Positions 3,286 through 21,552 are shown, counted from the stretch's first letter. The stretch: DNA of 21,875 bases from Candidatus Electronema aureum (GCA_004284765.1 NQJD01000040.1:1-21875); one strand, 5' to 3'. The notes: generated from the letters alone by a model not told the origin. A program made the numbers and translations.

Positions 3286-3882
3286 ATGAATCTTGTGCCA
3301 ATGGTGGTTGAGCAGAGTCCGCGCGGCGAGCGGGCTTTTGACATTTACTCGCGCCTGCTGCGGGAGCGCATCGTCTTTCTCGGCACGCCGGTAAACGACG
3401 ATGTTTCCAGCCTGATTGTCGCCCAGCTGCTGTTTCTCGAAGCGGACGACCCGGACAAGGACATCACCTTCTACATCAACTCGCCCGGCGGCTCTGTCAC
3501 CGCAGGCATGGCCATTTACGACACCATGCAGTACATCCGCTGCGACGTGGCCACGCTCTGCATGGGCCAGGCGGCCTCAATGGGCGCGTTCCTGCTGGCT
3601 GCCGGCGCGGCGGGCAAACGCTATGCCTTGCCCAACTCGCGGATCATGATTCATCAGCCGATGGGCGGCTATCAGGGCCAAGCCACGGACATTGAGATTC
3701 ATGCCAAAGAAATTCTGCGGATGCGGGCTGATCTCAACACCATTTTGGCCAAACACACCGGCAAGCCGGTCAAGCAGATCGAGCAGGACACTGAGCGCGA
3801 CAACTTCATGGCCGCGCCGGAAGCGAAAGAATACGGCCTGATTGACAAGGTGCTGGAGCGCAGGGAGGAGGCCAAGGCATGA
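3286..3882 (+). CDS. clpP: ATP-dependent Clp protease proteolytic subunit ClpP
   Basis: 198-aa ORF with AAGGAG RBS at 3275-3280. Motifs 'RIVFLG..V.D', '[18 protein letters not shown]', '[14 protein letters not shown]' (catalytic Ser) and 'IMIHQP' (catalytic His) are present. Confidence 0.97.
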
Positions 3883-5311: not shown

Positions 5312-5710
5312 TTAACGAACAAGCTCAAACAGCGCAAAGCGAGCTGCTTTCCTGTCAAAGGTCATGACGACTTCACAGCCCTGCGCTTTGGCAGCATGAG
5401 CAATTAACAGATCAGAAAGATCGTATTTGCTCTCCTGCGCGGCTTGGATGAAATGATGCAGAACTGGACGATGCTCAAAGTTCAGCACCGGCATCAGGAG
5501 CAACTCCCGCAGCGCATCTAATATCTCATGCCTCGGTATTGCATAGACTGATTCCAGCACCCAGATCAATTCCAAGATGACCAGCAAAGGAACAAAGAGT
5601 TCGCTCCGGGCTGCTTCCGCCTTCTTGAACAGGTCGTACACCTTCCTTGCCTGTGTCTCGTCATCACCAACAAGAAAACGGACAAGGATGTTTGTGTCAA
5701 TGCCTTTCAC
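5312..5710 (-). CDS. vapC: PIN-domain toxin, VapC family
   Basis: 132-aa ORF starting 'MKGIDTNILVR' (PIN Asp in DTN). Later acidic positions occur in 'LSDLLIA' and 'TFD'. It overlaps the upstream antitoxin gene by 4 nt. Confidence 0.85.
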   Translation of the reverse strand: MKGIDTNILVRFLVGDDETQARKVYDLFKKAEAARSELFVPLLVILELIWVLESVYAIPRHEILDALRELLLMPVLNFEHRPVLHHFIQAAQESKYDLSDLLIAHAAKAQGCEVVMTFDRKAARFALFELVR

Positions 5711-5955
5711 TTGAAGCGTTCCTTGACGCGCTTTTTCACAGCCTCATCCATCTCTGCCAAGGTTGCCGCTTGTCTGCCCGGCTTATGCAGTTTGCAGAAC
5801 ACCTCGTCAACCTTCTTGGCAACAGGTCTGATCACCGCCTCCTGGTTCTCGTTGAGAACGATTTCCAGTTTGTCGCCAGGACGCAGCTTCATTGCGTCTC
5901 TGATGTGTTTTGGGATCGTCATCTGCCCCTTGGCAGTAAGTGTTGACAGCAGCAT
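5707..5955 (-). CDS. vapB: AbrB/SpoVT-fold antitoxin, VapB family
   Basis: 82-aa ORF with 'LTAKGQMTIPKHIRDAMKLRPGDKLEIV', a looped-hinge-helix AbrB/MazE-type motif. It lies directly upstream of the PIN gene and overlaps it. Confidence 0.8.
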   Translation of the reverse strand: MLLSTLTAKGQMTIPKHIRDAMKLRPGDKLEIVLNENQEAVIRPVAKKVDEVFCKLHKPGRQAATLAEMDEAVKKRVKERFK

Positions 5956-6159
5956 GTGTTCTCCTGTTCTGATAGGTGGTTAGGGATTACTGCGCTCTCC
6001 CCCAGCCTGCGTTAGGCTGTTTGCTCTGTGTAACCGTTTTCCCAGCATAGTGCAAGCAATTGCCGTTGCTTCAAGGAGAAATAACCACGCCTGCGCCATC
6101 GTTCTTGCAAGCCGGGCGAGAATCCCCAGCCCGGCTGCCAGCCGCTTACGGATCAAGCT

Positions 6160-6348
6160 CTATTCAATATTCCCTTTCCGCTGCACTCGTGCTTCGCAGT
6201 CTGCATCAATGTCCCATGCTCCACCGGTGTTGCCACGAAGATCATTGTCCTCGAAGGTGCCGCCTCCTTTGTCCAATACCGAAATACCCCCATAACCGTT
6301 CTTGGAGATACGGTCAGGGCGCGGCAAGGATGCAGCCGGTAGATCACC
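6160..6348 (-). pseudogene. C-terminal remnant of a right-handed parallel beta-helix (CASH-type) repeat protein
   Basis: My own translation of a minus-strand frame without a start codon gives 'GDLPAASLPRPDRISKNGYGGISVLDKGGGTFEDNDLRGNTGGAWDIDADCEARVQRKGNIE*'. The 'GI.V...G...ED N.L.GN..G' periodicity is typical of beta-helix repeats. No N-terminal part is present. Confidence 0.35.
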
Positions 6349-6361
6349 TCAATATTGCTCA

Positions 6362-7405
6362 TCACCCCTTCTTGCTGTGCAGGTCAAACGCCACCTCGTA
6401 GGACTTACCTTTCGCCAGCGCGGTCGCGGGCGGAACATACTTGAACAGCAACGCCGAGAACTCATACTCAAAATCCCCGACAAACTGCGGATCGTCATTG
6501 TTGACCGTAACTGTCCTGCCATTGACGCTGTGACTCGGCTGCGCGGCCTCGTGCCAATACTTGCTGATCACTCTGTCTGGGTAAAACGTCAACTGCCCTG
6601 TTTTCTGTCCATTCTGAAACTTCAGCGTGTCCGTCCGCGTTCGCTTAACCGTGCCGACCAGCCGGTACTCGCCGACCTTATATTCAATCTTGTCAAACAC
6701 CTCTCCGTCCGGGGGCTGGGCGAGGAAGTAGAACGGCTTGTTTTCCGTTTGCGTCCAGCCGCTGGTTCCATTTGTTTCCTCGTCCGGCTCCTGCACCCAG
6801 CCGGATGAGGAAGCTGCACCCGCTGCACTCTGCGGGTCGTTCTCAGGCTGCTTGCCCGCTGACTGCGCAGCAGCGGCGCGGGCAGCGTCAGCCTCGCTTC
6901 GCTCCAACGCCGCCACAATCTGCTCCGCTATCTTTGTAATAGCCTTGCGAAGCTGTGGCGAGGTAAATGGCTCATGGCGCAACTCCCTCCAGTCCGCATA
7001 CTGCCGGGCGGCGATAATCTGCGCCAGCGGGTCATGTTTCAGCTTCTCTTTGTCCTTCAGCACAGGACAGGTGGCATAATAGACCGGCAGAATCAAATCG
7101 CCTCGGCCCAGCTCCTCTTCCCGCTTGAGAAAACGCTCAAGCTCCGCACGGCAGGCGGTGCTTTTGAAGAATGCAGGCGTGATGATTGGTAGCAGAAAGG
7201 TGACGGCAGCAAGCGAGGTGTCCAGCCGCTCCTGCCACTGCTGGCCCCAGGCAATGTCCTTGCGGTCTTGAAAGATGTCGAACGCCTCGCCAGTCAGGAA
7301 ACGTACCTCGCCGCTCAAGCGTTCGCGGAACTGCGTCAAGTCCCCATAGTCATGCTGGTCGTTTAAATTCACATAGCTCAGAAAAGCAAGTGGTGTCCGG
7401 CTCAT
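6362..7405 (-). CDS. TIR-domain protein with low-complexity linker and unassigned beta-rich C-terminal domain
   Basis: 347-aa ORF with GGAGGA RBS 7 nt upstream. The N-terminal ~140 aa read as a TIR_2-type domain: 'LAFLSY....D', 'IFQDRKDIAWGQQW', 'LLPIITPAFFKSTACRAELERF'. An Ala/Ser/Gln-rich linker follows, then ~150 aa with no motif I recognise. Confidence 0.8.
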   Translation of the reverse strand: MSRTPLAFLSYVNLNDQHDYGDLTQFRERLSGEVRFLTGEAFDIFQDRKDIAWGQQWQERLDTSLAAVTFLLPIITPAFFKSTACRAELERFLKREEELGRGDLILPVYYATCPVLKDKEKLKHDPLAQIIAARQYADWRELRHEPFTSPQLRKAITKIAEQIVAALERSEADAARAAAAQSAGKQPENDPQSAAGAASSSGWVQEPDEETNGTSGWTQTENKPFYFLAQPPDGEVFDKIEYKVGEYRLVGTVKRTRTDTLKFQNGQKTGQLTFYPDRVISKYWHEAAQPSHSVNGRTVTVNNDDPQFVGDFEYEFSALLFKYVPPATALAKGKSYEVAFDLHSKKG

Positions 7406-7454
7406 CTCAACTTCCTCCGCAGCGGTGTTGGTTGTTTAGTCCTGCATCAGCCGT

Positions 7455-7483
7455 ATAATAACTGTGTTTCTGCCGCGCTGCAA
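7455..7483 (-). promoter_or_regulatory. Putative sigma70 promoter for the TIR gene
   Basis: On the minus strand: TTGCAG (7483-7478), 17-nt spacer, TATTAT (7460-7455). The same AT block reads TATAAT (7454-7459) on the plus strand with TTGTTT 16 nt upstream, so it may be bidirectional. Confidence 0.45.
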
Positions 7484-7508
7484 GCGGTTCAGATTGCGCT
7501 GCTGTTGG

Positions 7509-7623
7509 TGACAGCATGGTGTCATGATATGTGATAGCAGGCTGTCACTCTGAGCAACACTACGCTGTCACTTCCTGTGACACTATGCCGTCACCCTGAG
7601 TGACACTACGCTGTCACTGCACA
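7509..7623. repeat. Five head-to-tail 23-bp repeats, each with a GTGACA-N6-TGTCAC-type dyad
   Basis: Units read directly from the sequence: GACAGCATGGTGTCATGATATGT / GATAGCAGGCTGTCACTCTGAGC / AACACTACGCTGTCACTTCCTGT / GACACTATGCCGTCACCCTGAGT / GACACTACGCTGTCACTGCACAC. The period is exactly 23 bp and the array lies between divergent promoters. Confidence 0.85.
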
Positions 7624-7651
7624 CGCCACCGTAGTGGCACGACATGTCGTG
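7624..7651. promoter_or_regulatory. Two adjacent palindromes downstream of the repeat array
   Basis: GCCAC-CGTA-GTGGC (7624-7637) overlaps a perfect 16-bp palindrome GCACGACATGTCGTGC (7636-7651) that contains the same GACA/TGTC core. Confidence 0.6.
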
Positions 7652-7678
7652 CTCCTGCTCAAAAGGTCTGATAATCCT

Positions 7679-7707
7679 GTTGACAAATCATCTGGCGCGT
7701 CTTAGTT
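7679..7707 (+). promoter_or_regulatory. Putative sigma70 promoter for the HU-like/DUF4469-like gene
   Basis: TTGACA (7679-7684), 17-nt spacer, TAGTTT (7702-7707), about 60 nt upstream of the ATG at 7768. Confidence 0.4.
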
Positions 7708-7767
7708 TTGTCTTGATGCGCCACGACCTTCCTGCATCTCTTCCTTTCCTCTCACCGGAGAACAGTC

Positions 7768-8841
7768 ATGAGCATACAATATCGGATTGAACCGAATCCA
7801 CTCACCACGCCCCCATCCTACCGCATTCAAGCCGTGCCGCGCAACACCGCAGGCTATGCGGAGATGGCCGCTGACATCTCGTCGGCGCAGCCCATCTACA
7901 GTCCTGAGACCATCAGCAGCCTTGCCCCGCTGATCATGAAATGGATTCAGCAGCGGCTCATCAGCGGCGACAAAGTGACCTTGGAGGAGGCGTTCAGCTA
8001 CTATATCTCCTTCACCGGCAAGTTGGACAGCCCGGACGAGCCACTGCCAGAAGATGACGATATACTTCAGGTTAATGTGCGCGTGTCCCAGCCTTTTGTG
8101 AAAGAGATACGGCATCAGGCCAAACTTGAGCGGCTGCCCATGACCGAGAAGCTGCCCGTGATCACATCGACCGAGGACACCAAGCTCAAGCTGGCTGACG
8201 TGCTGTTCGCAGGTGGCGTGCTCAAGTTGACTGGCAGCAATCTCCTCTTTGATGAGAGCAGCCCGGACTGCGGTTGCGTGCTGGAAGGGACACGGAGCGG
8301 GCGGCAGAAGCAGAGCACCTACGCCTCGGTCGCCAACAGCGGCATACTGCTGGTGCCAGACATTCCTGTGCAGGATAATCCCTGGAATAACGAATACACG
8401 GTCACGCTCACCACCCAGTACAGCGAACACGGCACTCTGCGTAGCGGCACCAGCCGCCGGAAGCTGCGCTCGCCCCTGACCGTGCCGCTCTTCGGCCACC
8501 CGCATCCGCCAGAGACAGGGATACTGACCGGCAATGCCACTGCCCCGTATGTGAAGATCACTGGCGGCACGGTCTCAGCAGACGAAATGCTGCGCATTCA
8601 GGCGGTGATTGATTCCCGCAGCGGCCTGCTGCTGCTCAATTTGCTCGACATGGAAGAGGGCGGCAAGACAGGCGCGACTGTGACAGTCACCGCCAATGGG
8701 ACATACACCTTGGGCGGATTTGCAGGCTCGGCAGTGACCAGCTTAGAGCTGAAGGTGGAGAATCTTGCGGCGTTAGTCAGCCTGATCAGGAATAGCTATG
8801 CAGGCAGGATGGTGGATATTCTGGATATAAGTATGGCGTAA
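7768..8841 (+). CDS. HU-like (HU-HIG type) DNA-binding domain + DUF4469-like Ig-fold domain protein with ~110-aa unassigned C-terminal extension
   Basis: 357-aa ORF with GGAGA RBS. The N-terminus 'YRIEPNPLTTPPSYRIQAVPRNTAGYAEMAADIS....ETISSLAPLIMKWIQQRLISGDKVTLEEAFSYYISFTGKL' is followed by 'LPVITSTEDT...GGVLKLTGSNLLFDESSPDCGCVLE....ILLVPDIP....YTVTLTTQYS'. This matches my recollection of the Bacteroidota HU + DUF4469 architecture. I have not verified it by search. Confidence 0.6.
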   Translation: MSIQYRIEPNPLTTPPSYRIQAVPRNTAGYAEMAADISSAQPIYSPETISSLAPLIMKWIQQRLISGDKVTLEEAFSYYISFTGKLDSPDEPLPEDDDILQVNVRVSQPFVKEIRHQAKLERLPMTEKLPVITSTEDTKLKLADVLFAGGVLKLTGSNLLFDESSPDCGCVLEGTRSGRQKQSTYASVANSGILLVPDIPVQDNPWNNEYTVTLTTQYSEHGTLRSGTSRRKLRSPLTVPLFGHPHPPETGILTGNATAPYVKITGGTVSADEMLRIQAVIDSRSGLLLLNLLDMEEGGKTGATVTVTANGTYTLGGFAGSAVTSLELKVENLAALVSLIRNSYAGRMVDILDISMA

Positions 8842-13224: not shown

Positions 13225-14265
13225 ATGCTGAACGTTGGCATCATCGGGGCCTCCGGCTACACCGGCGTTGAACTGGCCCGCATTCTCTCGATCCATCCTG
13301 AAGTCAAGCTGACCGTGGCCACTTCACGTCAGTATGCGGGCAAACCGCTTTCCGCCGTCTTTCCTAACTTGCGCAAGCGGGTGGATTTGCTCTGCGAGGA
13401 CTTGACCCCGGAGCAGCTTGTTGACCGCGCCGATTTCTTTTTCGCCGCTGTGCCGCATAAGACTGCCATGGCCCTTGTGCCGACGCTTCTGGCGGCTGGC
13501 AAGAAGGTCGTTGATCTGAGTGCGGATTTCCGCATCCGCGATGCCGCAGTGTACGAGCAGTGGTATCAGCCGCACACATGCCCGGAGCTGATCGCTGAGG
13601 CTGTCTACGGTCTGCCGGAGCTGTACCGCGAGCAGGTGAAGCAGGCCCGGCTGGTCGCCAATCCTGGCTGCTATCCCACCTCAATCATTCTTGGCCTCGC
13701 TCCGCTGCTGCGCGAAAAGCTGATCGACCCATCCACGTTGATCATTGACTCCAAATCCGGCACCTCCGGCGCAGGACGCTCGGCCAGCGTGGACACTCTT
13801 TATTGTGAGGTGGCCGACGGCTTCCGGGCCTACAAGGTCGGCGGCACGCACCGCCACATCCCGGAGATTGAGCAGGAGCTGTCCGTGCTGGCCGGAAGCG
13901 CAGTGACGATCTCCTTCACCCCGCATTTGCTGCCGATTTCACGCGGCATTCTCAGCACCATCTACGCCACATTGAGCAGCGCAGTCAGCGAGCAGGACAT
14001 TCAGGCGTTGTACGAAAGCGCGTACAAGGACGAGAGCTTTGTCCGCGTCTGCCCTGCCGGAACCTTCCCGGCCACCCAGCATGTGCGCGGCAGCAACTGC
14101 TGTGACATCGGCGTGAAGGTTGATGCCAGAACCGGGCGGGTTATTGTCATGTCGGCGATTGACAACATCGCCAAAGGCGCGTCCGGTCAAGCAGTGCAGA
14201 ATATGAACCTCATGAACGGCTTTGCCGAAGACTGCGCCATCCGAGGAGCCGCTTTCTTCCCGTGA
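13225..14265 (+). CDS. argC: N-acetyl-gamma-glutamyl-phosphate reductase
   Basis: AAGGAG RBS (13213-13218), then ATG at 13225. Motifs '[17 protein letters not shown]', 'NPGCYPTS' (catalytic Cys) and '[16 protein letters not shown]' are present. The tracked upstream extension to 13045 overlaps rpsI and is rejected. Confidence 0.95.
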
Positions 14266-14266
14266 G
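14256..14266. repeat. Core copy 1 of an 11-bp direct repeat CTTCCC[G/A]TGA[G/C]
   Basis: CTTCCCGTGAG spans the argC stop codon. Identical-class copies lie at 15889-15899 and 18025-18035. Confidence 0.75.
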
Positions 14267-14280
14267 GCGGAGGAAGATAC

Positions 14281-14316
14281 GCCTGCGCCTAACCTTTGAT
14301 CCGGGTTGGCGCAGGC
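14281..14316. other. Imperfect 13-bp-stem hairpin at the left edge of the islet
   Basis: GCCTGCGCC(T)AACC (14281-14294) pairs with GGTTGGCGCAGGC (14304-14316), with one bulged T and a 9-nt loop. No T-tract follows. Confidence 0.5.
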
Positions 14317-14320
14317 CGAT

Positions 14321-15100
14321 ATGTCTAACTATTTATCATTAAATGCAATTATGGTTTGCCGTTTATGCCAACAAGACTTGGAACTGAGGAATTCGCATAT
14401 AATTCCTGAGTTGTTATGGAGCAGCATATACAATAAAAAGCACCAAGCTCTTCCTATGTCTATAGGAAACAACAAATTAAAGATAATTCAAAAAGGTATT
14501 CGAGAAAAATTACTCTGTCAAGGATGCGAGACTAAACTTTCAAGATGGGAAAATTCTCTAAAAAGGCATCTCGTAGATTTAGGAGATCTTGCCAGTGATT
14601 TTTTAGAGATAGATCGTATGAATGCTGATCTGATAAGGGTGAAAAATATTGAATACAGGATATTTAAACTGGCGATACTGTCCATATTTTGGAGAATGTC
14701 TGTCTCAACTAATCATGTTTATTCAGATTATCAGTTGGGACCTTACGAAGAGATAATAAGAGATATTTTGTTTACCGAAGCGCATGTACCAGAAAAACAT
14801 TTTCCTGTATTAATTTATAGATACGAATTAGATGGTATGTTTTATCCAGATATTATGATGCATTTTCCTTGTCGTAAATTAGATCAAACCTATACTATTC
14901 AACAGGTTATATTTTATGGACATCTCTTCTGTATCATTATTAATAACAAAAAACTTCCTGTTGATATACAGAAAGAGATTATTCTCAGCGAAACAGGAGA
15001 GATATTCATCAGTGTGAGAAGTTTGGTTGAGCTTGCATCTCCTGTCAGTGTTTTCACAAGACTCCTTGATGATGATGTAAAACGATTTTATGGGAAATAG
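14321..15100 (+). CDS. AT-rich orphan protein with N-terminal CxxC...SHIIPE...CxxC (HNH-like / zinc-ribbon-like) motif
   Basis: The ORF runs 14306-15100. I take the first ATG at 14321, with ATG 14351 (MVCRLCQQ...) also possible. The motif string is 'CRLCQQDLELRNSHIIPELLW....LLCQGCETKLSRWE', and the remaining ~180 aa are unassigned. Hand counts of single lines give roughly 28-38% G+C versus about 55% in argC. Confidence 0.6.
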   Translation: MSNYLSLNAIMVCRLCQQDLELRNSHIIPELLWSSIYNKKHQALPMSIGNNKLKIIQKGIREKLLCQGCETKLSRWENSLKRHLVDLGDLASDFLEIDRMNADLIRVKNIEYRIFKLAILSIFWRMSVSTNHVYSDYQLGPYEEIIRDILFTEAHVPEKHFPVLIYRYELDGMFYPDIMMHFPCRKLDQTYTIQQVIFYGHLFCIIINNKKLPVDIQKEIILSETGEIFISVRSLVELASPVSVFTRLLDDDVKRFYGK

Positions 15101-15175
15101 CGATGGCACTAGACGATATTGAGCTATCACGGCAGGATGGCGGATATTTTTGAGATGGGGATGTGGCACTGCTGA

Positions 15176-15203
15176 TTGACAGCACGATACCATGACATAA
15201 TGC
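15176..15203 (+). promoter_or_regulatory. Possible promoter for the RHH/RelE-like pair
   Basis: TTGACA (15176-15181) with a weak -10 candidate TAATGC (15198-15203) at 16-nt spacing. The -10 assignment is ambiguous. Confidence 0.35.
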
Positions 15204-15229
15204 AAGAACCTCAGCCAAGGAGGCAGGCC

Positions 15230-15487
15230 ATGCTGGCAGGAACGAAAAAACGGCTGGTCATTGAACTCGACCCGCAAGAGCACGGAGCTATCAAAGCGCA
15301 AGCCCTGCGGCTCGGCATTTCTATGAAAGAGTATGTCTTGCGGCAGCTGCGCGACAGGCGGGAGAACCCAGTCTCGGATGATCTGACCGCTGCTCTTGCC
15401 GCTGCCCTTAACGAAGTGAAAGCGCACAAAGAGGGCAAGATGAACGCGCCGCCGGAAAGCGCGCGCGCTTTTTTCAGCAGACTTTGA
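15230..15487 (+). CDS. Ribbon-helix-helix (CopG/Arc-like) antitoxin
   Basis: AAGGAGG RBS (15217-15223), then ATG at 15230. 'KKRLVIELDPQEHGAIKAQALRLGISMKEYVLRQL' fits a beta-strand/helix/helix RHH pattern. The stop overlaps the toxin ATG as TGATG. Confidence 0.7.
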   Translation: MLAGTKKRLVIELDPQEHGAIKAQALRLGISMKEYVLRQLRDRRENPVSDDLTAALAAALNEVKAHKEGKMNAPPESARAFFSRL

Positions 15488-15819
15488 TGCGCGTTGTCAA
15501 CACCACCTTGAGCTTCCGCAAGGTTTTCCGCAAGTTCCTGAAGCCGTATCCGCATTTGCAAGAAGATTTCCTTCCGCTGCTGGAGCAGCTTGAACACGGC
15601 CCGCTGCCCGGCGTTCCTCTCGTTGGTTTTGCTGGAAAAATCTGGAAGGCCCGCCTTGCCTCGTCAGATCAGCGCAAAGGCAGAAGCGGCGGCTTCAGGC
15701 TGATCTATCTTACTGACGAGAAGGCGCAGGAGCTTTGGCTGCTGACGCTGTATGCAAAATCAGAGCAGACCGACATCCGCGCTGGCGAGATTCAGAAAAT
15801 TCTTGATTCGCTACCCTGA
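15487..15819 (+). CDS. RelE/ParE-superfamily toxin (HigB/RelE-like)
   Basis: 110-aa ORF. 'GKIWKARLASSDQRKGRSGGFRLIYL....LWLLTLYAKSEQTDI' matches the K(G/R)KSGG(Y/F)R(V/L)IY...YaKnE pattern of RelE-like addiction toxins. It is translationally coupled to the RHH gene. Confidence 0.75.
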   Translation: MRVVNTTLSFRKVFRKFLKPYPHLQEDFLPLLEQLEHGPLPGVPLVGFAGKIWKARLASSDQRKGRSGGFRLIYLTDEKAQELWLLTLYAKSEQTDIRAGEIQKILDSLP

Positions 15820-15888
15820 GTTGCAGTTGAGCAGCAGGGCAATTCCCCGCATGTTGACCATTTCAGTGCAAATGTTCCTTGTTGCAAC

Positions 15889-15969
15889 CTTCCCATGACC
15901 CAACGCAACATCCGCCTGCACGTCGCCTACGACGGCACAGACTTCTGCGGCTGCGGGCATACTCATTGA
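15889..15969 (+). pseudogene. Diverged 5' fragment of truA (includes core copy 2)
   Basis: 15889-15953 aligns by hand to 18025-18089 with 58/65 identities. It would encode MTQRNIRLHVAYDGTDFCG, compared with truA MSQRNIRLHIAYDGTGFCG. Homology then ends and a stop follows at 15967-15969. Confidence 0.8.
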
Positions 15970-15971
15970 CG

Positions 15972-16005
15972 AACAGCACTTTCTGCTGTTACTCTTGCAA
16001 GAGTA
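15972..16005. promoter_or_regulatory. Dyad symmetries upstream of brnT (candidate operator)
   Basis: AACAGCA-N5-TGCTGTT (15972-15990) abuts a perfect 16-bp palindrome TACTCTTGCAAGAGTA (15990-16005), 25 nt upstream of the brnT ATG. Confidence 0.5.
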
Positions 16006-16030
16006 AGATTGTTGTTTCTGCCGGGTGATT

Positions 16031-16327
16031 ATGAAACTTGTCTTTGAATGGAATGCGCAGAAGGCGCGGTCGAACGTGCAAAAGCACGGCATCAGCTTTG
16101 AGGAAGCCAAGACTGTCTTTGGTGATCCCTTACTTCTCACATATCCTGACGAGCTGCATTCGGAGAACGAGGAACGGTATATCAGCATAGGCCGATCTGG
16201 GTGCGGGCAGACTCTTCTTGTCGTGCATACCGAACAGGAGACCGAAAGAAAGCATGTAGTCCGCATCATCAGCAGTCGCAAAGCAACAAACCTTGAACGG
16301 GAAACGTATGAAAACGCAGAAGAGTAA
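16031..16327 (+). CDS. brnT: BrnT-family toxin (DUF497 ribonuclease)
   Basis: 'FEWNAQKARSNVQKHGISFEEAKTVFGDP', 'HSENEERYISIG' and '[16 protein letters not shown]' are hallmark BrnT/DUF497 motifs. I place the start at ATG 16031. Confidence 0.85.
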   Translation: MKLVFEWNAQKARSNVQKHGISFEEAKTVFGDPLLLTYPDELHSENEERYISIGRSGCGQTLLVVHTEQETERKHVVRIISSRKATNLERETYENAEE

Positions 16328-16583
16328 AACAGACCCGGACATGCTCCCGGAATACGATTTCAGCGGCAAAAAAGGTGTGCGCGGCAAGTATTATGATGCG
16401 TATCAGCAGGGTCATGCTGTCCGCGTGCGGCAGGAGGACGGAACTGTTATCACCCACTGTTTCACGCTGGAAGACGGAGCCGTGCTGCTGACACCGGACG
16501 TACGGGAGTATTTCCCTGACTCGGAGAGCGTCAACCGTGCCCTGCGCGGGCTGATTGCTCTGGTGCCGCATAAAGTGGTCTGA
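16308..16583 (+). CDS. BrnT-associated antitoxin (BrnA position; non-canonical, no obvious RHH)
   Basis: The gene overlaps the brnT 3' end. '[16 protein letters not shown]' and the C-terminal '[14 protein letters not shown]' are motifs I recognise from small antitoxin partners of DUF497 toxins. The start could be 16293, 16308 or 16341. Confidence 0.65.
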
Positions 16584-16645
16584 TATTATTCTGTTATGTA
16601 ACCTTGCATCAAACCCAGCCACCCTTGAACGAAGAGGCCGCACTC

Positions 16646-16876
16646 ATGCAGACAGCCAAGCTATTTGTCAACGGACGCAGTCAAGCCGTCAGACTGCCCA
16701 GAGGATTCAAATTCAAAGGAACAGATGTCTTTATTCAGAAAGTGGGTGATTCTGTCATTCTATTTCCAAAGGACAAGGTTTGGGAAACGTTCCTCAGCGG
16801 TCTCAACAGGTTCACAGACGACTTCATGGAAAATGGACGCGAGCAGCCTGAGATGCAGGAACGGGATGAGCTGTAA
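16646..16876 (+). CDS. vapB: VapB antitoxin (AbrB/SpoVT fold)
   Basis: '[41 protein letters not shown]' is the canonical VapB N-terminus. The stop overlaps the vapC ATG as TAATG. Confidence 0.85.
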
Positions 16877-17271
16877 TGTACCTTCTTGACACGAACACGT
16901 GCATCTTCATCAAGAACCGGAAGCCTGTTCATGTCCTCGAACGGCTCCGAACTTCCCTCGACAAGGGTGTCTTTTTGTCAAGTGTTTCAGTTGCTGAGAT
17001 GCAGTATGGAGTTTACAACAGCAGCAACATCGAAAAGAACAGAATTGCCCTGACAGAGTTTCTTGCTCCCTTTGAGATTCTCAACTTCGATGATGCGGAT
17101 GCGGAATTATTTGGCAGGCTGCGTGCTGACCTTAAAAGCAAGGGGACGATCATTGGGGCGTATGACATGCTGATTGCAGCGCAGGCACTCGCCCGCAACC
17201 TCATCTTAGTCACCAACAATACAGGCGAGTTCAAAAGAATTGCTGGCCTCAAGCTGGAAGACTGGAAATAA
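16876..17271 (+). CDS. vapC: VapC PIN-domain toxin (enterobacterial VapC/MvpT-like type)
   Basis: '[11 protein letters not shown]', 'SVAEMQYG', 'GAYDMLIAAQA' and 'LVTNNTGEFKRIAGLKLEDW' place all four PIN acidic positions in the expected context. Confidence 0.9.
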   Translation: MYLLDTNTCIFIKNRKPVHVLERLRTSLDKGVFLSSVSVAEMQYGVYNSSNIEKNRIALTEFLAPFEILNFDDADAELFGRLRADLKSKGTIIGAYDMLIAAQALARNLILVTNNTGEFKRIAGLKLEDWK

Positions 17272-17498
17272 TCGATTGATAGGCTCTCGCCTCTACTTAT
17301 TCCCTTCCACTCTGCCGGGCTGAGAAAGGCAAGGTCGGAGCTGACCAACACGCTGCTCCATCCTTATAGCTGACGCAATAGTTCCGGTTTCTGACGCATC
17401 AGGCCCTTATATAAGCAATCGGCATAGTGTATTCTATCTCTTAGATCATGGGATGATATTGGTTCGTCCCGCCAACTGACCTTTCAAAGGAGTTTATC

Positions 17499-17627
17499 AT
17501 GACTAAGAAGATCGTTCTGTTTGCATCGCTTTGCTTGTTTGCTCTTAATTTAAGCGCAGCATTAGCGGAACCTACTGGAAGTGACACATGCCCAAGTGGA
17601 TGCCATGTAGGAGGAAGCGGTAAATAA
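17499..17627 (+). CDS. Small secreted Cys-containing peptide (42 aa), hypothetical
   Basis: This ORF is too short for the ORF track. An AAAGGAG RBS sits 7 nt upstream. The product is MTKKIVLFASLCLFALNLSAALA|EPTGSDTCPSGCHVGGSGK, with a clear signal-peptide pattern and an A-L-A cleavage motif. A strong terminator follows. Confidence 0.45.
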   Translation: MTKKIVLFASLCLFALNLSAALAEPTGSDTCPSGCHVGGSGK

Positions 17628-17689
17628 ACAGAAAAAACGGTGCAAAGGATAGGCTAATGACCTATTGTTTAGCAGCATCGTTTACCAAA

Positions 17690-17727
17690 CAGCCCGGATT
17701 TCATTCCATCCGGGCTGCCTTATTTTT
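17690..17727 (+). terminator. Rho-independent terminator
   Basis: CAGCCCGGAT (17690-17699) / ATCCGGGCTG (17708-17717) with an 8-nt loop, followed by CCTTATTTTT. Confidence 0.7.
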
Positions 17728-17756
17728 CAACATCCCCCCTCCCCACCAACGCACAC

Positions 17757-17848
17757 AAGTCCCTCGGACTTACCTACGTTAGTCCCAAAGACTTGTATAT
17801 ACAAGTCCGCCGGACTTATGCACGTAAGTCTTGCGGATTTATATACGT
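17757..17848. repeat. Four head-to-tail 23-bp repeats, each with an AAGTCC-N3-GGACTT dyad
   Basis: Units: AAGTCCCTCGGACTTACCTACGT / TAGTCCCAAAGACTTGTATATAC / AAGTCCGCCGGACTTATGCACGT / AAGTCTTGCGGATTTATATACGT. The period is exactly 23 bp. The array lies between a terminator and the truA-proximal promoter. Confidence 0.8.
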
Positions 17849-17869
17849 TCCTCCCCGCCACCTTTCCTC

Positions 17870-17898
17870 TTGACAGGCCGGGCCGCGCTCCGTATGCT
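17870..17898 (+). promoter_or_regulatory. Putative sigma70 promoter upstream of truA
   Basis: TTGACA (17870-17875), 17-nt spacer, TATGCT (17893-17898). Confidence 0.5.
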
Positions 17899-17968
17899 TG
17901 CCTTTTTAGTAAGGTAGAACCCCAATCCAGAGATTTCTCTCATTGATTCTGTCCGCATCAGAATAAAA

Positions 17969-18034
17969 AACATGAACGTGCTGAACGTCTTTGCCGAGGA
18001 CTGCGCCATCCGAGGAGCCGCCTTCTTCCCATGA
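17969..18034 (+). pseudogene. Diverged duplicate of the argC 3' end (includes core copy 3)
   Basis: 17990-18035 matches 14221-14266 at 43/46 by hand, with weaker homology back to about 17969. It encodes [21 protein letters not shown], compared with arg[22 protein letters not shown]. Its TGA overlaps the truA ATG as ATGA. Confidence 0.8.
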
Positions 18035-18852
18035 GCCAGCGCAACATTCGCCTGCACATCGCCTACGACGGCACTGGTTTCTGCGGCTGGCAGAAGCAGA
18101 AGAACGGGACGACCATTCAGGGGCTGCTGGAGGCCGCGCTTGCCCGCATCACCAAGGAGGCGACGGAGGTCAGCGGCGCGGGCCGCACGGATGCGGGCGT
18201 TCATGCAGAGGGAATGACCGCCAATTTCTATACGGGCGCGGCCATGCCAGCGGCAGCCTTTCAGCGGGCACTGAATTCCATGCTGCCCAAGGCGGTGCGC
18301 ATTCTTGAGGCCGCCGAGGCCGCGCCCGACTTCCACGCCCGCTTTTCCGCGCTCGGCAAAACCTACCGCTACGACTTCTTCACCGGCGCAGTGCAGCTGC
18401 CCGCCGAACGCCTTTACCGCGCCCACGCGCCCTGCGTCTTCATGCCGGAGCGCGTCCAGCCTTGTCTGGAACTGCTCATCGGCAGCCACGACTTCTCCAG
18501 CTTTGAGGCCGTTGGCACCCGCGACCGCAGCAAGACCGGGGGCCGGGGCGCAGTGCGCACCATCTTCCGCGCCGAATGCGTCGCCGATCCAGCCCGGCCT
18601 GAGCATTTTTCCTTCCGCTTCAGCGGCGACGGCTTTCTTCGCTGCATGGTGCGCAATCTGTCTGGAACCCTGATCTGGGCTGGCGCAGGCAAAGTAAGCT
18701 GCGAGCAGTTCGCCAGTATTCTTGCGGCAAAAGACCGCACACAGGCAGGCCCGACTGCCCAAGCTTGCGGGTTGTTCTTAGAGAAAGTGGATTACCGGGA
18801 CTGTTTTTTTAGCAAAGGACTGGTCTCCGGGAACAGCTTGGGGTGTGCTTGA
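18031..18852 (+). CDS. truA: tRNA pseudouridine(38-40) synthase TruA
   Basis: 273-aa ORF with 'IRLHIAYDGTGFCGWQKQ' and 'GAGRTDAGVHA' (catalytic Asp), plus the later 'FLRCMVRNL' motif. Confidence 0.93.
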   Translation: MSQRNIRLHIAYDGTGFCGWQKQKNGTTIQGLLEAALARITKEATEVSGAGRTDAGVHAEGMTANFYTGAAMPAAAFQRALNSMLPKAVRILEAAEAAPDFHARFSALGKTYRYDFFTGAVQLPAERLYRAHAPCVFMPERVQPCLELLIGSHDFSSFEAVGTRDRSKTGGRGAVRTIFRAECVADPARPEHFSFRFSGDGFLRCMVRNLSGTLIWAGAGKVSCEQFASILAAKDRTQAGPTAQACGLFLEKVDYRDCFFSKGLVSGNSLGCA

Positions 18853-19200: not shown

Positions 19201-21552
19201 TCAACCCTGATTTCGAGCTGCCTTATCGCAGACCCGGCAGACTTCGTTCTGCTCCCAGACCGGGCCGCTGGCAGTGTCATGCACGGTCACGCCCCGGCGG
19301 AGCAGCTCAGAGCGGGCCTCATCAGCAGCGGCCCAGTCCTTGCGGCGGCGGGCTTCCTCACGCTGCTGAATCAGGCGGTTGATCTCTGGGGCTAAGGCGC
19401 ATTCGTCCAAGCGGAGGAAGCCCAGCACCAGATTCATCCGGCGCAGGCAGGCAAAAACTTCATTCTTCTGCGCCAAATCGAGCGAACCGGCAATCAGGGC
19501 CGGGTTGGCTTTCTTGATGAACTCGAACAGCGCGCCGATGGCCCCGGAAATATTGAGGTCATCATTCATTGCGGCGGTGAACTGCTCCTCCAGCTCGGCG
19601 GTGAGCTGGCTGATCAAGCGGTGCGGCAGGCCCGGCGGCAGGCAGAGCAGCTTGCGGGTGAATTCATCAATCCGTTTTAGGGCGTTGCGGAAGGCATCGA
19701 GCTTGCGGTAGCTGAACTCGATGGACTTGCGGTAATGCACGCCCACGAGCATGAAACGAATCTCGCGCCCGGTGTAGCCTTTGTCCAGCACCTCTTGCAG
19801 CGTGACCACGTTGCCGGATTCCTGCGCCATCTTCTTGCCGTTGTGCAGCAGCAGGCCGGAATGCAGCCAATACTGCGCCAGCGGCTTGCCGGTCAGCGAC
19901 TCGGCAATGGCGATCTCGTTCTCGTGATGCGGGAAAAGCAGCTCTTGGCCGCCGGTGTGAATGTCAATGGTCTCGCCGAGATGCCGGGTGGACATGGCCG
20001 TACATTCGATATGCCAGCCGGGCCGCACATTGCCCCAGTCGGTGGCGAAAAAGATGCCTTTCTTCAGCTCGCCAAGTGTGGAACGCTTGAGCAGGGTGAA
20101 ATCACGGGGATTGTCCTTGTCGTAGTTGTCGAGATCAACCGTGCAGCCGGTCTGTATCTTGCTCAGGTCAATCCCGGACAGCCGCCTATATCGCTTGAAC
20201 TTCGAGATGTCGAAATAGATCGAGCCGTGCTTCTCGTAGGCATAGCCCTTGTGAATCAGCTTGTGGGCGATGTCAATCATCTCGGCCACCTGCTCTGAGG
20301 CACGCGGATAGCCGGAGAAGTCGTTGATGCCGAGGATGCCCATGGCCTCGCGGAAAAGGGAAATATGGCGTTCGGTGAAGGCGGCCAGCGGCTGCCCGGC
20401 TTTCTCCGCGCCAGCAATGGTTTTGTCGTCCAGATCAGTGAAATTCATCAACGACTGCACCTCGAAGCCGCTGAAGCGGAGATGGCGGATCATCAAGTCC
20501 GCTGCTGCCATGCGGCGGCAGTGCGCCAAGTTCGGCGGCTCGCAGGCAGTGGGGCCGCAGGCGTAGAAGGTCACGCTCTTCGCATCCGCCGGTTTGAAGA
20601 TCTCCTTCTTGCGGCTCATTGAGTTGTGATAGCGGATTTTCCCCTCCAGGCTTTCCTCCTTCTCCTTGCGGACAAAGAGCGTCGTGCTCAGGTAGCGTTC
20701 GCCGCCGTCCGGGAATATCGCCACCACGTAACTGTCTTTCACCTTGGCCGCCTGCTCCATCGCTGCAAACATCGCCGCGCCAGAACTCATGCCGACCAGA
20801 AGACCTTCGCGCTGGGCCAGCAGCCGGGCGGTGCGGAAGGCATCCTCATCCGCCACGTTGACAATCTGATGCGGCAGCGTCTTGTCAAAGATCTCTGGGC
20901 GGTAGGACTCCTTCATGTTCTTGAGGCCCTGAATCTTGTGCCCGTAGTACGGCTCCACCGCGACCACCCGCACGTCCGGGTGATGCTCGCGGAACCAGCG
21001 CGACAGCCCCATCGCCGTGCCCGACGTGCCCAGCGTGGTGACGATGTGTGTCACCTTGCCCTCGCTCTGCCGCCAGATTTCCGGGGCCGTGCTCTTGCAG
21101 TGCGCCTGCCAGTTGGCCGGGTTGTTGAACTGGTCGGTGAGGAAGTACAGCTCCGGCTGCGCCAGGGCGAGGGAGTAGGCTTTCTCAATCGCGCCGTCGG
21201 TGCTGCGGCGGGCCGGAGTGAGGATAAGTTCCGCGCCGTAGGCCCGCATGATCTGCCGCCGCTCCATGCTCGCTGACTCCGGCATGACGAGGCAGCAGCG
21301 GTAGCCCTTGGCCGCGCAGACCATCGCCAAGCCGATGCCGGTGTTGCCGCTGGTGGCTTCGAGCACGATCTTGTCCGGGGTCAGCAGGCCGCTTTCCTCT
21401 CCGGTCTCGATCATGTTCAGCGCGGGCCGGTCTTTCACCGAGCCGCCGGGGTTCATGGCTTCGAGCTTGGCGAAGATCGCGCCGCCTTCAGGCGATGCCA
21501 GCCGCCGCAGCGGGACTATGGGCGTGTTGCCGATCAGGGAGAGGAGGTTCAT
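19201..21552 (-). CDS. Fusion protein: PLP-dependent cysteine synthase (CysK/CysM-like) + full-length cysteinyl-tRNA synthetase-like module with non-canonical HIGH/KMSKS motifs
   Basis: Continuous 783-aa ORF. The N-terminal ~300 aa carry 'IGNTPIVPL', 'NPGGSVKDR' (PLP Lys), 'TSGNTGIGLA' and 'GHKIQG'. The C-terminal ~470 aa align by eye to E. coli CysRS, with 'FYACGPT', 'RPGWHIECTAM', 'IHTGGQELLFPHHENEIA', 'DDLNISGA' and the C-terminal 'LIQQREEARRRKDWAAADEAR'. HIGH reads NLAH and KMSKS reads KMAQE. Confidence 0.85.
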   Translation of the reverse strand: MNLLSLIGNTPIVPLRRLASPEGGAIFAKLEAMNPGGSVKDRPALNMIETGEESGLLTPDKIVLEATSGNTGIGLAMVCAAKGYRCCLVMPESASMERRQIMRAYGAELILTPARRSTDGAIEKAYSLALAQPELYFLTDQFNNPANWQAHCKSTAPEIWRQSEGKVTHIVTTLGTSGTAMGLSRWFREHHPDVRVVAVEPYYGHKIQGLKNMKESYRPEIFDKTLPHQIVNVADEDAFRTARLLAQREGLLVGMSSGAAMFAAMEQAAKVKDSYVVAIFPDGGERYLSTTLFVRKEKEESLEGKIRYHNSMSRKKEIFKPADAKSVTFYACGPTACEPPNLAHCRRMAAADLMIRHLRFSGFEVQSLMNFTDLDDKTIAGAEKAGQPLAAFTERHISLFREAMGILGINDFSGYPRASEQVAEMIDIAHKLIHKGYAYEKHGSIYFDISKFKRYRRLSGIDLSKIQTGCTVDLDNYDKDNPRDFTLLKRSTLGELKKGIFFATDWGNVRPGWHIECTAMSTRHLGETIDIHTGGQELLFPHHENEIAIAESLTGKPLAQYWLHSGLLLHNGKKMAQESGNVVTLQEVLDKGYTGREIRFMLVGVHYRKSIEFSYRKLDAFRNALKRIDEFTRKLLCLPPGLPHRLISQLTAELEEQFTAAMNDDLNISGAIGALFEFIKKANPALIAGSLDLAQKNEVFACLRRMNLVLGFLRLDECALAPEINRLIQQREEARRRKDWAAADEARSELLRRGVTVHDTASGPVWEQNEVCRVCDKAARNQG

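What the first reader, a model, noticed from the sequence alone, without database searches (positions are those of the whole stretch)
14256..18035. Two-module, integrase-less islet at the argC|truA junction, bounded by three copies of an 11-bp core
argC and truA look like formerly overlapping genes. At 18021-18036 an argC-like reading frame still ends in a TGA that overlaps the truA ATG as ATGA. The core CTTCCC[G/A]TGA[G/C] occurs three times, at 14256-14266, 15889-15899 and 18025-18035. Copy 2 runs into a diverged copy of the truA 5' end (58/65 by hand). Copy 3 is preceded by a diverged copy of the argC 3' end (43/46 in the best 46 bp). This is the attL/attR geometry expected if module B (15954-17968) integrated by site-specific recombination carrying its own argC'-core-truA' attP. 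Module A (14267-15888), flanked only by the short core, would then have entered the same core later. Neither module encodes a recombinase, so a trans-acting enzyme or a cassette-like mobilisation mechanism is implied. The cargo is an orphan AT-rich gene plus three TA pairs, which is typical of defence or addiction hotspots.
Basis: partly seen in the sequence, partly recalled or inferred. Interest (0 to 1): 0.75.

Follow-up and report, generated by a model that had tools for sequence, protein, structure and literature searches.

The report
Stacked gene islet splitting argC–truA
In the cable bacterium Candidatus Electronema aureum, two small toxin-antitoxin gene blocks that sit alone at this site in sister species are stacked between argC and truA; each is bounded by leftover copies of the old gene junction, and no recombinase is present, so this is a tidy but fairly ordinary genomic islet.

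Summary
The 11-bp core occurs three times (0.05 expected), and the partial argC and truA copies are highly significant. Relatives show empty sites (argC/truA overlapping or up to about 50 bp apart in some 60 Desulfobulbales loci) and alternative cargo in at least seven Electronema-type lineages.

The interpretation needs correcting in four ways.
- The "core" is the conserved ArgC C-terminus (F-F-P-stop) plus the truA start. It is not the crossover.
- Electronema sp. V4 carries ParD-RelE, the same spacer and core, then a functional truA. This stretch is collinear at 96.3% with window 15179-15953. The truA' fragment is therefore a formerly functional truA cut after nucleotide +59, and the A|B boundary is 15953/15954, not core 2.
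- Module B arrived with its own arm: the argC tail, the core and at least 44 nt of truA, identical over those 44 nt to a lineage (L179) that carries B alone. It was probably added to a V4-like A islet, not the reverse.
- Core 1 is also followed by an older, decayed truA relic shared across Electronema.

Best reading: stacking of modules at truA codon ~20, each supplying a replacement truA 5' end. No integrase was found anywhere. Host homologous recombination and a lost or trans-acting site-specific integrase remain nearly equally likely.

The parts
13225..14265 (+). argC, full length. Its native 3' end finishes CCG-TGA, and core copy 1 lies at 14256-14266.
   Evidence: Pfam Semialdhyde_dh domains. 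The 3' end matches the Electronema JC, V4, L179 and L180 alleles.
14262..14317 (+). J1 relic: the oldest, decayed truA 5' end (GTG start, AGG-type allele, internal deletions). It forms the outer left boundary of the islet.
   Evidence: In register 22/34 against truA, 0/20000 shuffles. Gapped score 18 with 1/2000 shuffles reaching it. Equivalent relics follow argC in V4 and L180 with significant scores; L179, L009 and L125 show weaker resemblance at the same position.
14333..15100 (+). Orphan cassette: an AT-rich (about 31-36% GC) 249-aa gene (14351-15100) of a phage-associated family of unknown function.
   Evidence: PHROG 19960, E=1e-19. 69 homologues. The same cassette sits at another locus in Electronema JC (L168) and in L169 and L170. 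GC profile.
15101..15166 (+). Relic of the 3' end of an HU-HIG/DUF4469 gene. The intact paralogue is at 7768-8841. The relic travelled with the orphan cassette.
   Evidence: Alignment A1. In JC and L169 the cassette lies directly after the full DUF4469 gene and is followed by this relic.
15230..15819 (+). ParD antitoxin (15230-15487) and RelE-like toxin (15487-15819).
   Evidence: Pfam ParD E=1.6e-8. RelE scores 24.5 bits, below the 27-bit cutoff. The block is 96.3% identical to the V4 islet.
15820..15953 (+). Former right junction of the A-type islet: a 69-nt spacer, core copy 2 (15889-15899) and a truA 5' end truncated after nt +59 (15895-15953).
   Evidence: Collinear with V4 spacer-core-functional truA. 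The relic matches V4 truA at 56/59, L179 at 54/59 and the resident truA at 52/59.
15954..17271 (+). Module B cargo: an 18-bp palindrome TTACTCTTGCAAGAGTAA (15989-16006), BrnT (16031-16327), putative BrnA (16308-16583), VapB (16646-16876) and VapC-PIN (16876-17271).
   Evidence: Pfam BrnT E=1e-25 and PIN E=7e-18. 94.4% identical to L179, where it directly follows argC. Inverted repeat.
17368..17627 (+). Remnant of the 5' part of a secreted-protein gene. The 42-aa ORF at 17499-17627 is its truncated start.
   Evidence: Window 17368-17518 is 92.7% identical to L168 7125-7275, upstream of and into a 131-aa gene.
17690..17898 (+). Intrinsic terminator (17690-17727), four AAGTCC-N3-GGACTT palindromes spaced 23 bp apart (17757-17840), and a sigma-70-like promoter TTGACA-17-TATGCT (17870-17898) that now faces truA.
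   Evidence: In L179, L180, L182 and L168 the same block sits upstream of the HU-HIG/DUF4469 gene.
17969..18035 (+). B's arm: an argC 3'-end relic (17969-18030) that forms a 20-codon mini-ORF (17972-18034). Its stop overlaps the truA ATG. Core copy 3 lies at 18025-18035.
   Evidence: Nearly identical to the L179 right junction from about -30 to +44.
18031..18852 (+). truA, functional. Its first 44 nt are of L179 (donor) type. A dyad TTCTGC-GGCTG-GCAGAA lies at 18079-18095, and the position equivalent to the A|B breakpoint is 18089/18090.
   Evidence: Pfam PseudoU_synth_1. Allele comparison. Dyad.

Best explanation
The islet is a tandem stack of two alternative 'islet alleles' that occupy the same site singly in sister Electronema lineages.
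- The A-type allele is J1 relic ... ParD-RelE - core - truA, as in Electronema sp. V4.
- The B-type allele is BrnTA-VapBC ... argC relic - core - truA, as in metagenomic lineage L179.

How the insertions are built:
- The insertion point is not the 11-bp core. It lies inside truA at about nucleotide +59/+60 (codon 20, ...F-C-G-W|Q...).
- Each incoming unit carries an arm that copies the chromosomal junction: up to about 100 nt of the argC tail, the stop/start overlap, and truA nt 1-59.
- A single crossover therefore cuts the resident truA 5' end, leaving a relic on the left, and supplies a new truA 5' end on the right. That new end comes with the argC-derived mini-ORF needed for translational coupling and, in this genome, a promoter.
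- Repetition of this process yields J1 relic | A | core 2 + truA' relic | B | argC relic + core 3 + truA.

Shown: the architecture, the breakpoint, the donor-like and recipient-like alleles, empty sites, alternative cargo, and the absence of any recombinase gene.

Inferred: the enzyme. I commit to host (RecA-type) homologous recombination between junction copies as the driver of gain and loss. The forms would be Campbell-type integration of circles excised by recombination between two junction copies, or unequal pairing of junction copies. The reasons are that the arms are simply the chromosomal junction alleles of sister lineages, and that none of the islet variants carries an integrase. What created the very first junction duplication stays open. 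The cargo (three type II toxin-antitoxin pairs plus a phage-family orphan) probably acts as addiction or defence genes. That role is inferred from family membership only.
For: - Empty ancestral site. argC and truA overlap (ATGA, GTGA or TGATG) or lie up to about 50 bp apart in about 35 Desulfobulbales genomes and about 25 metagenome contigs.
- V4 arrangement. It reads argC | J1 relic | 508-aa gene | argC relic | ParDE | spacer | core | functional truA. The V4 stretch is 96.3% identical to window 15179-15953, running straight through core 2 to +59. The J2 relic matches V4 truA at 56/59 and the resident truA at 52/59.
- L179 arrangement. It reads argC | BrnTA-VapBC ... | argC relic - core | truA, with no module A. 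Its cargo is 94.4% identical to window 15956-17334, whereas the flanks are 86.8% and 87.5% identical. The window J3 junction is near-identical to the L179 right junction, and the first 44 nt of truA are identical.
- Crossover position. The left copy carries the V4-type base at every diagnostic site through +48, and the right copy is L179-type through +44. The crossover therefore lies between +48 and +59.
- Junction copies recur inside other islets. L009 has an 86-nt argC relic (score 111 against a shuffle maximum of 24). V4 has an internal argC relic (score 25 against a maximum of 17).
- Relics next to argC are significant in L180, V4 and the window.
- No integrase, resolvase or transposase was found in the 21.9-kb window or in any islet.
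- Modules are more similar between lineages than the flanking core genes are. ParDE is 96.3% identical against 89.8% and 91.6% for the flanks, which implies exchange between lineages.
Against: - The inferred crossover falls in the last 11 of roughly 70 homologous nucleotides. Under uniform homologous recombination that has a chance of only about 15%.
- It coincides with a dyad, CTTCTGC-GGCTG-GCAGAAG (perfect 7-bp arms in the V4 allele). Clearly scored relic ends lie at +59 (window J2), +60 (V4 J1) and +62 (L180 left relic); the window J1 relic runs to about +70. This pattern fits a site-specific recombinase better.
- Homologous recombination cannot explain the first duplication of the junction.
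- RecA would have had to work on 60-170 nt of only 87-95% identical DNA.
- No mechanism of DNA transfer between cable-bacterium lineages is known to me.
- The direction of events is not resolved. Gain of B in the window lineage and loss of B in V4 plus loss of A in L179 both fit.
- The rest of the genome could not be searched for recombinases.
Confidence: 0.45

Rival explanations
1. The modules are remnants of, or passengers on, site-specific integrative elements whose attachment site lies inside the truA 5' end, at the dyad at +48..+66. They would resemble dusA- or prfC-targeting islands, which replace the 5' end of their target gene. The tyrosine-type integrase would have been lost or would act in trans, as for cis-mobilizable elements. 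Successive integrations next to truA would build the array.
For: - The geometry matches dusA islands exactly: the old 5' end forms the outer boundary and the island provides a new 5' end (PMC4482086).
- Breakpoints cluster at +59/+60/+62, at the edge of the spacer of a 6-7-bp inverted repeat.
- The crossover for B is confined to +48..+59.
- This model explains the first duplication and why every module has its own arm.
- The cargo is typical of mobile elements.
Against: - None of at least seven islet variants, and none of their 4-10-kb flanks, encodes an integrase or excisionase. That includes the apparently recent B unit.
- The arms are 87-100% identical to chromosomal alleles of sister lineages rather than being element-specific.
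- The dyad lies in the conserved coding motif F-C-G-W-Q-K/R-Q. Its folding energy is not unusual (z = -1.4 to -1.8), and 7-bp inverted repeats occur about 1.1 times per kb.
- The orphan cassette carries a relic of a different gene, so other processes also act here.
- No attP-like sequence was found in IMG/VR.
Confidence: 0.35
2. An 11-bp core, CTTCCC[G/A]TGA[G/C], is the crossover site. Module B integrated first with an argC'-core-truA' attP, and module A later entered the same core flanked only by the core.
For: Three core copies. attL/attR-like flanks. L179 and L180 carry B-type cargo next to argC without A.
Against: - Homology with V4 runs uninterrupted through core 2 into the truA' fragment, so the joint is at +59 and not at the core.
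- Core 2 carries ATG, the state seen at junctions in front of a functional truA, while every junction directly after argC carries CCG-TGA.
- The relic at the left of B in L179 and L180 is the old AGG type, like window J1 and unlike J2.
- Core 1 is followed by its own old truA relic.
- The core is conserved because it encodes PFFP-stop.
Confidence: 0.03
3. A purely local origin. A tandem duplication of the roughly 170-bp junction in the Electronema ancestor created a neutral landing pad. The present content arose by in-situ illegitimate insertions and deletions, without transfer of units between lineages.
For: - It explains the first duplication and the shared old J1 relic.
- Many boundaries are not at junction copies. 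Examples are the L180 deletion into brnA, the truncated 131-aa gene, and the orphan cassette with a foreign relic.
Against: - Modules are more similar between lineages than the flanking core genes are.
- The J2 relic and the J3 arm carry alleles of other lineages.
- Each module has its own junction copy.
Confidence: 0.07

Closest known systems
Genomic islands and prophages integrated in the 5' end of dusA (DusA-associated integrases; Farrugia et al. 2015, PMC4482086). SXT/R391 elements in the 5' end of prfC are a similar case, recalled from my own knowledge.
   Same: The insertion lies inside the 5' coding end of a tRNA-modification gene. The island supplies a replacement 5' end. The original 5' end is left as a relic at the outer boundary. 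Empty sites exist in relatives.
   Different: Those islands always carry their integrase next to the new 5' end and have a short att core (about 21 bp). Here no integrase occurs in any variant. The arm is 60-170 nt long, is nearly identical to sister-lineage chromosomal alleles, and includes the upstream gene's tail, which keeps the stop/start overlap.
Cis-mobilizable elements (CIMEs) and accretion arrays of integrative elements, such as the Streptococcus ICESt1/3 site in fda and the Dehalococcoides ssrA islands (PMC5704250, PMC3146451; listed, not read)
   Same: Tandem modules are separated by internal copies of the attachment region. The modules lack recombination genes.
   Different: CIMEs coexist with related integrase-bearing elements that use the same att site. 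None was found here. The internal boundary lies at the end of the duplicated segment, and no demonstrated att core exists.
Minimal mobile elements of Neisseria (islets exchanged by homologous recombination between conserved flanking genes; PMC3787668 and PMC1797815; listed, not read)
   Same: Different small cassettes sit between the same two conserved genes in different lineages. There are no mobility genes. Exchange by homologous recombination is inferred.
   Different: To my knowledge MMEs are replaced allele for allele and are not flanked by duplicated gene ends. Here junction copies allow stacking rather than replacement.
Integron cassette arrays
   Same: Small, co-oriented, mostly single-function cassettes lie in a row. 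Toxin-antitoxin cassettes are common cargo.
   Different: There is no IntI, no attI and no attC hairpins. The repeated unit derives from coding sequence.

Membership tests
Site-specific integrative island (tyrosine-integrase type, 5'-end-replacing, dusA/prfC-like) | Direct repeats made of the target gene end flank the inserted DNA, and the old 5' end lies at the outer boundary | tested here: met
Site-specific integrative island (tyrosine-integrase type, 5'-end-replacing, dusA/prfC-like) | An integrase (with or without an excisionase) is encoded in the element, usually next to one att site | tested here: not met
   No Phage_integrase, Resolvase or DDE hit in the window or in the islets of V4, L179, L180/181 and L125. 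The rest of the genome was not searchable.
Site-specific integrative island (tyrosine-integrase type, 5'-end-replacing, dusA/prfC-like) | Crossover at one fixed short core with dyad symmetry | tested here: inconclusive
   The crossover for B lies between +48 and +59. Relic ends lie at +59, +60, +62 and about +70. A dyad lies at +48..+66, but it is in conserved coding sequence and its folding energy is unremarkable.
Site-specific integrative island (tyrosine-integrase type, 5'-end-replacing, dusA/prfC-like) | Precise excision to a circle and a restored empty site | not testable with these tools
   This needs read-level data or PCR.
Cis-mobilizable element / accretion array | att-flanked module without a recombination module | tested here: met
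   Junction copies bound A and B, and no recombinase is present.
Cis-mobilizable element / accretion array | A related autonomous element with the same att specificity in the same or related genomes | tested here: not met
   None at argC/truA in the Electronema-type loci examined, and the viral-contig scan for the predicted attP found nothing. Sampling is limited.
Integron cassette array | An intI gene, attI, and attC hairpin sites bounding cassettes | tested here: not met
   No integrase. The repeats are argC/truA coding relics. No Rfam or structured element in the islet.
Islets exchanged by homologous recombination between conserved flanks (Neisseria MME-like) | Different cargo between the same conserved genes in different lineages, with no mobility genes | tested here: met
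   Window, V4, JM (L009), L125, L179 and L180 all differ in cargo.
Islets exchanged by homologous recombination between conserved flanks (Neisseria MME-like) | Exchange by homologous recombination in the flanks or junction copies | tested here: inconclusive
   Module identity exceeds flank identity, and alleles are mosaic. The enzyme is not shown.
Type II toxin-antitoxin modules (cargo) | Adjacent small toxin and antitoxin genes with family-level domain hits | tested here: met
   BrnT, PIN and ParD score above the Pfam cutoffs. RelE (24.5 < 27) and the MazE-like VapB (21.3 < 24.7) score below them, and BrnA has no hit. Activity was not tested.

The most novel reading that the evidence does not exclude
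The junction copy (argC tail, stop/start overlap, truA nt 1-59) acts as a portable, self-healing attachment arm. It would let integrase-less cassettes excise and re-integrate at truA codon 20. The agent would be either host recombination alone or an unrecognised recombinase acting at the CTTCTGC-GGCTG-GCAGAAG dyad. The only recurrent non-toxin-antitoxin protein of these islets is the HU-HIG/DUF4469 DNA-binding protein, which comes with a four-palindrome operator array. This would be a cassette system specific to cable bacteria that preserves translational coupling of the target gene.
Probability: 0.2. Interest if true: 0.6.

Novelty: new member of a known kind. Interest (0 to 1): 0.35.

Why it matters
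The locus gives a clean, nucleotide-level reconstruction of how a small defence or addiction islet is assembled. Two alternative islets from sister species are stacked at one site, and each restores the gene it interrupts. It also shows that a short repeated "core" can be a by-product of conserved coding sequence rather than a recombination site.

If integrase-free mobility through junction arms were demonstrated, it would add a simple route for cassette exchange in uncultured, multicellular cable bacteria, where gene-transfer mechanisms are unknown. As it stands, this is a well-resolved example of a known phenomenon, not a new system.

Tried and rejected
- **Orphan gene as an HNH-like nuclease or mobilising enzyme.** The idea came from its CxxC...SHIIP...CxxC pattern. 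Pfam, NCBIfam and PADLOC gave no hit. A PDB profile search gave nothing. The AF2 model is confident (pLDDT 91), but Foldseek found no PDB match with E below 0.001 and only one uncharacterised myovirus protein in BFVD. Distant homologues are not flanked by gene-end repeats as a rule. The orphan is also absent from the other islets. Rejected as the mobiliser.
- **Phage- or element-borne attP.** An exact degenerate scan of IMG/VR for the predicted junction found nothing.
- **A third, older truA relic at 15954-15994, and an L179 left relic beyond 18 nt.** Neither is significant (P about 0.1 and 0.4). Dropped.
- **HU-HIG/DUF4469 protein as a hidden recombinase.** Pfam shows only HU-like and Ig-like domains. 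There is no PDB sequence match. The single-sequence AF2 model is unusable (pLDDT 36). Unresolved.
- **Integron-like or other structured-RNA sites.** Nothing was found in the islet. Xer/dif-like sites were judged absent by eye only; no dif scan was run.
- **Free local alignment of the sequence after core 1, and of the sequence before core 2.** Neither was significant. Only the in-register and gapped tests recovered the J1 relic.
- **L084 (arsR-acr3 between argC and truA)** has no repeats and is an unrelated insertion.

Full report
**Source and reality of the sequence.** The window is identical to GCA_942492785.1 (OW818638.1, 2.94 Mb). A source name for one of its proteins is Candidatus Electronema aureum. 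This is probably the closed GS genome described in PMC10030654. An independent short-read contig of 6,960 nt covers rplM-rpsI-argC-islet-truA at 100% identity. The arrangement is therefore not an assembly artefact.

**The observation.**
- The pattern CTTCCCRTGAS occurs at 14256, 15889 and 18025 only, with 0.05 expected.
- The argC tail (14200-14266) is repeated at 17969-18035, and the truA head (18025-18089) at 15889-15953 with 58/65 identity.
- Local alignment scores are 104 and 95 against shuffle maxima of 26 and 34.
- Pfam confirms argC, truA, ParD, BrnT and a PIN toxin. The RelE-like and MazE-like partners score below their cutoffs, and the AT-rich gene has no hit.

**What the "core" is.** In about 35 Desulfobulbales genomes and about 25 metagenome contigs, argC is followed directly by truA. 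ArgC ends ...P-F-F-P-stop everywhere, and its TGA overlaps the truA start as ATGA, GTGA or TGATG. In Electrothrix the two genes lie 7-19 nt apart. The 11-mer is thus the last argC codons plus the truA start. Its conservation among copies needs no recombinase.

**The site is a hotspot only in Electronema-type lineages.** Cargo differs in every lineage.

| Lineage | Arrangement between argC and truA |
|---|---|
| L125 | argC, decayed truA relic, one AT-rich HEPN-like gene, ~21-nt argC relic + core, truA |
| JM (L009) | argC, relic, 593-aa gene, 86-nt argC relic (score 111 vs maximum 24), further sequence to contig end |
| V4 (L184) | argC, relic, 508-aa homologue of the JM gene, argC relic, ParD-RelE, core, truA |
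| L179 | argC, BrnTA-VapBC, RNase T2, HU-HIG/DUF4469, chalcone-synthase-like gene, ~30-nt argC relic + core, truA |
| L180/181 | argC, 62-nt truA relic, brnA remnant, VapBC, HU-HIG, core, truA |
| JC (L008) | synteny breaks 8 nt after the argC stop |

**The decisive comparison.**
- V4 positions 3288-4065 (reverse complement of L184 15401-20324) align to window 15179-15953 at 96.3%.
- This stretch runs from ParD through RelE, the 69-nt spacer and core 2 into the truA' fragment. In V4 that fragment is the start of the functional truA.
- The fragment matches V4 truA at 56/59 and the resident truA at 52/59. Its three amino-acid differences from the resident (S2T, I10V, G16D) are conservative, and T2 and D16 recur in other truA alleles (V4; L088 and L084).
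- The fragment is therefore a formerly functional truA cut after +59. The A|B joint is 15953/15954, not core 2.
- On the other side, the window junction in front of the living truA is near-identical to the right junction of L179 from about -30. It is identical to L179 over truA nt 1-44.
- B cargo is 94.4% identical to L179, although the flanking argC and truA are only 86.8% and 87.5% identical.
- B therefore came as a unit with its own arm: argC tail, core and truA 5' end.
- Diagnostic sites place the crossover between +48 and +59.

**The left boundary.** Right of core 1 lies an older truA relic (14262-14317). It matches truA at 22/34 in register with 0/20000 shuffles, and a gapped alignment gives 1/2000. 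It shares the GTG start and an AGG arginine codon with the relics that follow argC in V4, L180 and L179 and with the living truA allele of L180. This first truncation therefore predates the split of these lineages. Junctions directly after argC all read CCG-TGA. Junctions in front of a functional truA read CC-ATG-A, and core 2 is of this second type.

**Module A is composite.**
- The orphan gene (true start 14351, 249 aa) belongs to a phage-associated family (PHROG 19960; 69 homologues).
- In Electronema JC and in contig L169 the same cassette lies at another locus. There it sits directly after an HU-HIG/DUF4469 gene and is followed by a relic of that gene's last 45-70 nt.
- The window carries the same foreign relic at 15101-15166, although its own HU-HIG gene is at 7768-8841.
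- Homology with V4 resumes just after the relic, at about 15171-15179.

**The right part of B is also a patchwork.**
- Window 17368-17518, running into the 42-aa ORF that starts at 17499, is the start of a 131-aa secreted-protein gene of JC.
- The terminator, four palindromes and promoter at 17690-17898 normally precede the HU-HIG gene in L179, L180, L182 and JC. Here that gene is missing and the promoter faces the argC-relic mini-ORF and truA.

**Mechanism.** The architecture is what a single crossover produces between a resident truA 5' end and an incoming unit that carries a copy of the junction. The old 5' end stays as a relic and a new one is supplied. This geometry is described for islands in the 5' end of dusA (PMC4482086).

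Two engines fit.
- *Host homologous recombination between junction copies.* In favour: the arms are simply the chromosomal alleles of sister lineages. Junction copies flank modules, so circles with one copy can form. None of the islet variants or their flanks encodes a recombinase.
- *A site-specific integrase.* In favour: the crossover sits in the last 11 of about 70 homologous nucleotides. Relic ends lie at +59, +60 and +62. There the gene reads CTTCTGC-GGCTG-GCAGAAG, an inverted repeat with a 5-nt spacer. Against this signal: the repeat lies in the conserved F-C-G-W-Q-K/R-Q motif, its folding energy is ordinary, and such repeats occur about once per kb.

I put host recombination at 0.45 and a lost or trans-acting integrase at 0.35. 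Whether B was gained in the window lineage or lost in V4 cannot be fixed. The near-intact state of the J2 relic favours a recent event.

**Comparison and verdict.** The locus works like a 5'-end-replacing island or an accretion array. It fails the membership tests that require an integrase or a related autonomous element. It resembles Neisseria minimal mobile elements in lacking mobility genes, but it differs in having junction copies that permit stacking. I class it as a new member of a known kind: a small defence or addiction islet at a new target (truA codon 20), with an arm that preserves the stop/start overlap (a role in translational coupling is inferred, not tested). Interest is moderate.

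Noticed in passing
window 14351-15100; L168 9869-10618; L169 819-1577: The AT-rich orphan belongs to a phage-linked family (PHROG 19960) found in cable bacteria, cyanobacteria and others. Residues C3, C6, S15, H16, E20, C56, C59, E60 and E67 are invariant or nearly so. The AF2 model is confident (pLDDT 91), yet it has no PDB fold match and only one uncharacterised myovirus match in BFVD. Its function is unknown.
   Followed up: partly
window 17757-17898; also L179 4251-4441, L180 4325-4466, L182 2358-2549, L168 8589-8628 (promoter part only): Four copies of the palindrome AAGTCC-N3-GGACTT lie exactly 23 bp apart, just upstream of a strong sigma-70-like promoter. In other lineages the block precedes the HU-HIG/DUF4469 gene. 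It looks like a multi-site operator.
   Followed up: partly
window 5312-8841: A second islet lies between clpX and a methyltransferase gene. It holds a VapBC pair and a TIR-domain protein on the minus strand, and a 357-aa HU-HIG/DUF4469 DNA-binding protein. Homologues of that protein recur inside the argC-truA islets of L179 and L180 and next to the orphan cassette in JC.
   Followed up: partly
L008 11039-11160 (Ca. Electronema sp. JC): Synteny breaks 8 nt after the argC stop. GAGCCCAG, resembling the start of truA, is followed by valS and other core genes, with no truA within 10 kb. This is either a chromosomal rearrangement with a breakpoint at this junction or a MAG mis-join.
   Followed up: no
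L171 3535-3552 and 5219-5236: A 17/18-identical direct repeat brackets a 1.7-kb stretch holding a peptidase-M15 fragment and an orphan homologue. The left copy lies inside the 3' end of a peptidase M16 gene. By my estimate the chance expectation is about 0.002. It may be another small integrated islet in an unrelated bacterium.
   Followed up: no
L084 820-2471: A Desulfocapsaceae MAG has arsR plus an ACR3-type arsenite pump inserted between argC and truA. There are no flanking repeats, so this is an independent use of the same intergenic position.
   Followed up: partly
window 19201-21552 (minus strand): A 783-aa ORF combines a cysteine-synthase (PALP) domain with cysteinyl-tRNA synthetase domains. 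This appears to be a cysK-cysS fusion.
   Followed up: no
window 184-1536: dnaA lies at the start of the window, followed by tRNA-Leu, tig, clpP and clpX. The islets therefore sit within about 18 kb of dnaA.
   Followed up: no
L009 13062-13402: A unit of about 220 bp (an AT-rich promoter-like stretch plus the start of a small ORF) is repeated in tandem where the JM contig ends. This probably explains the assembly break inside that islet.
   Followed up: no
window 15989-16006: A perfect 18-bp palindrome, TTACTCTTGCAAGAGTAA, lies about 25 nt upstream of brnT and is conserved in L179. It is probably the BrnA operator.
   Followed up: no
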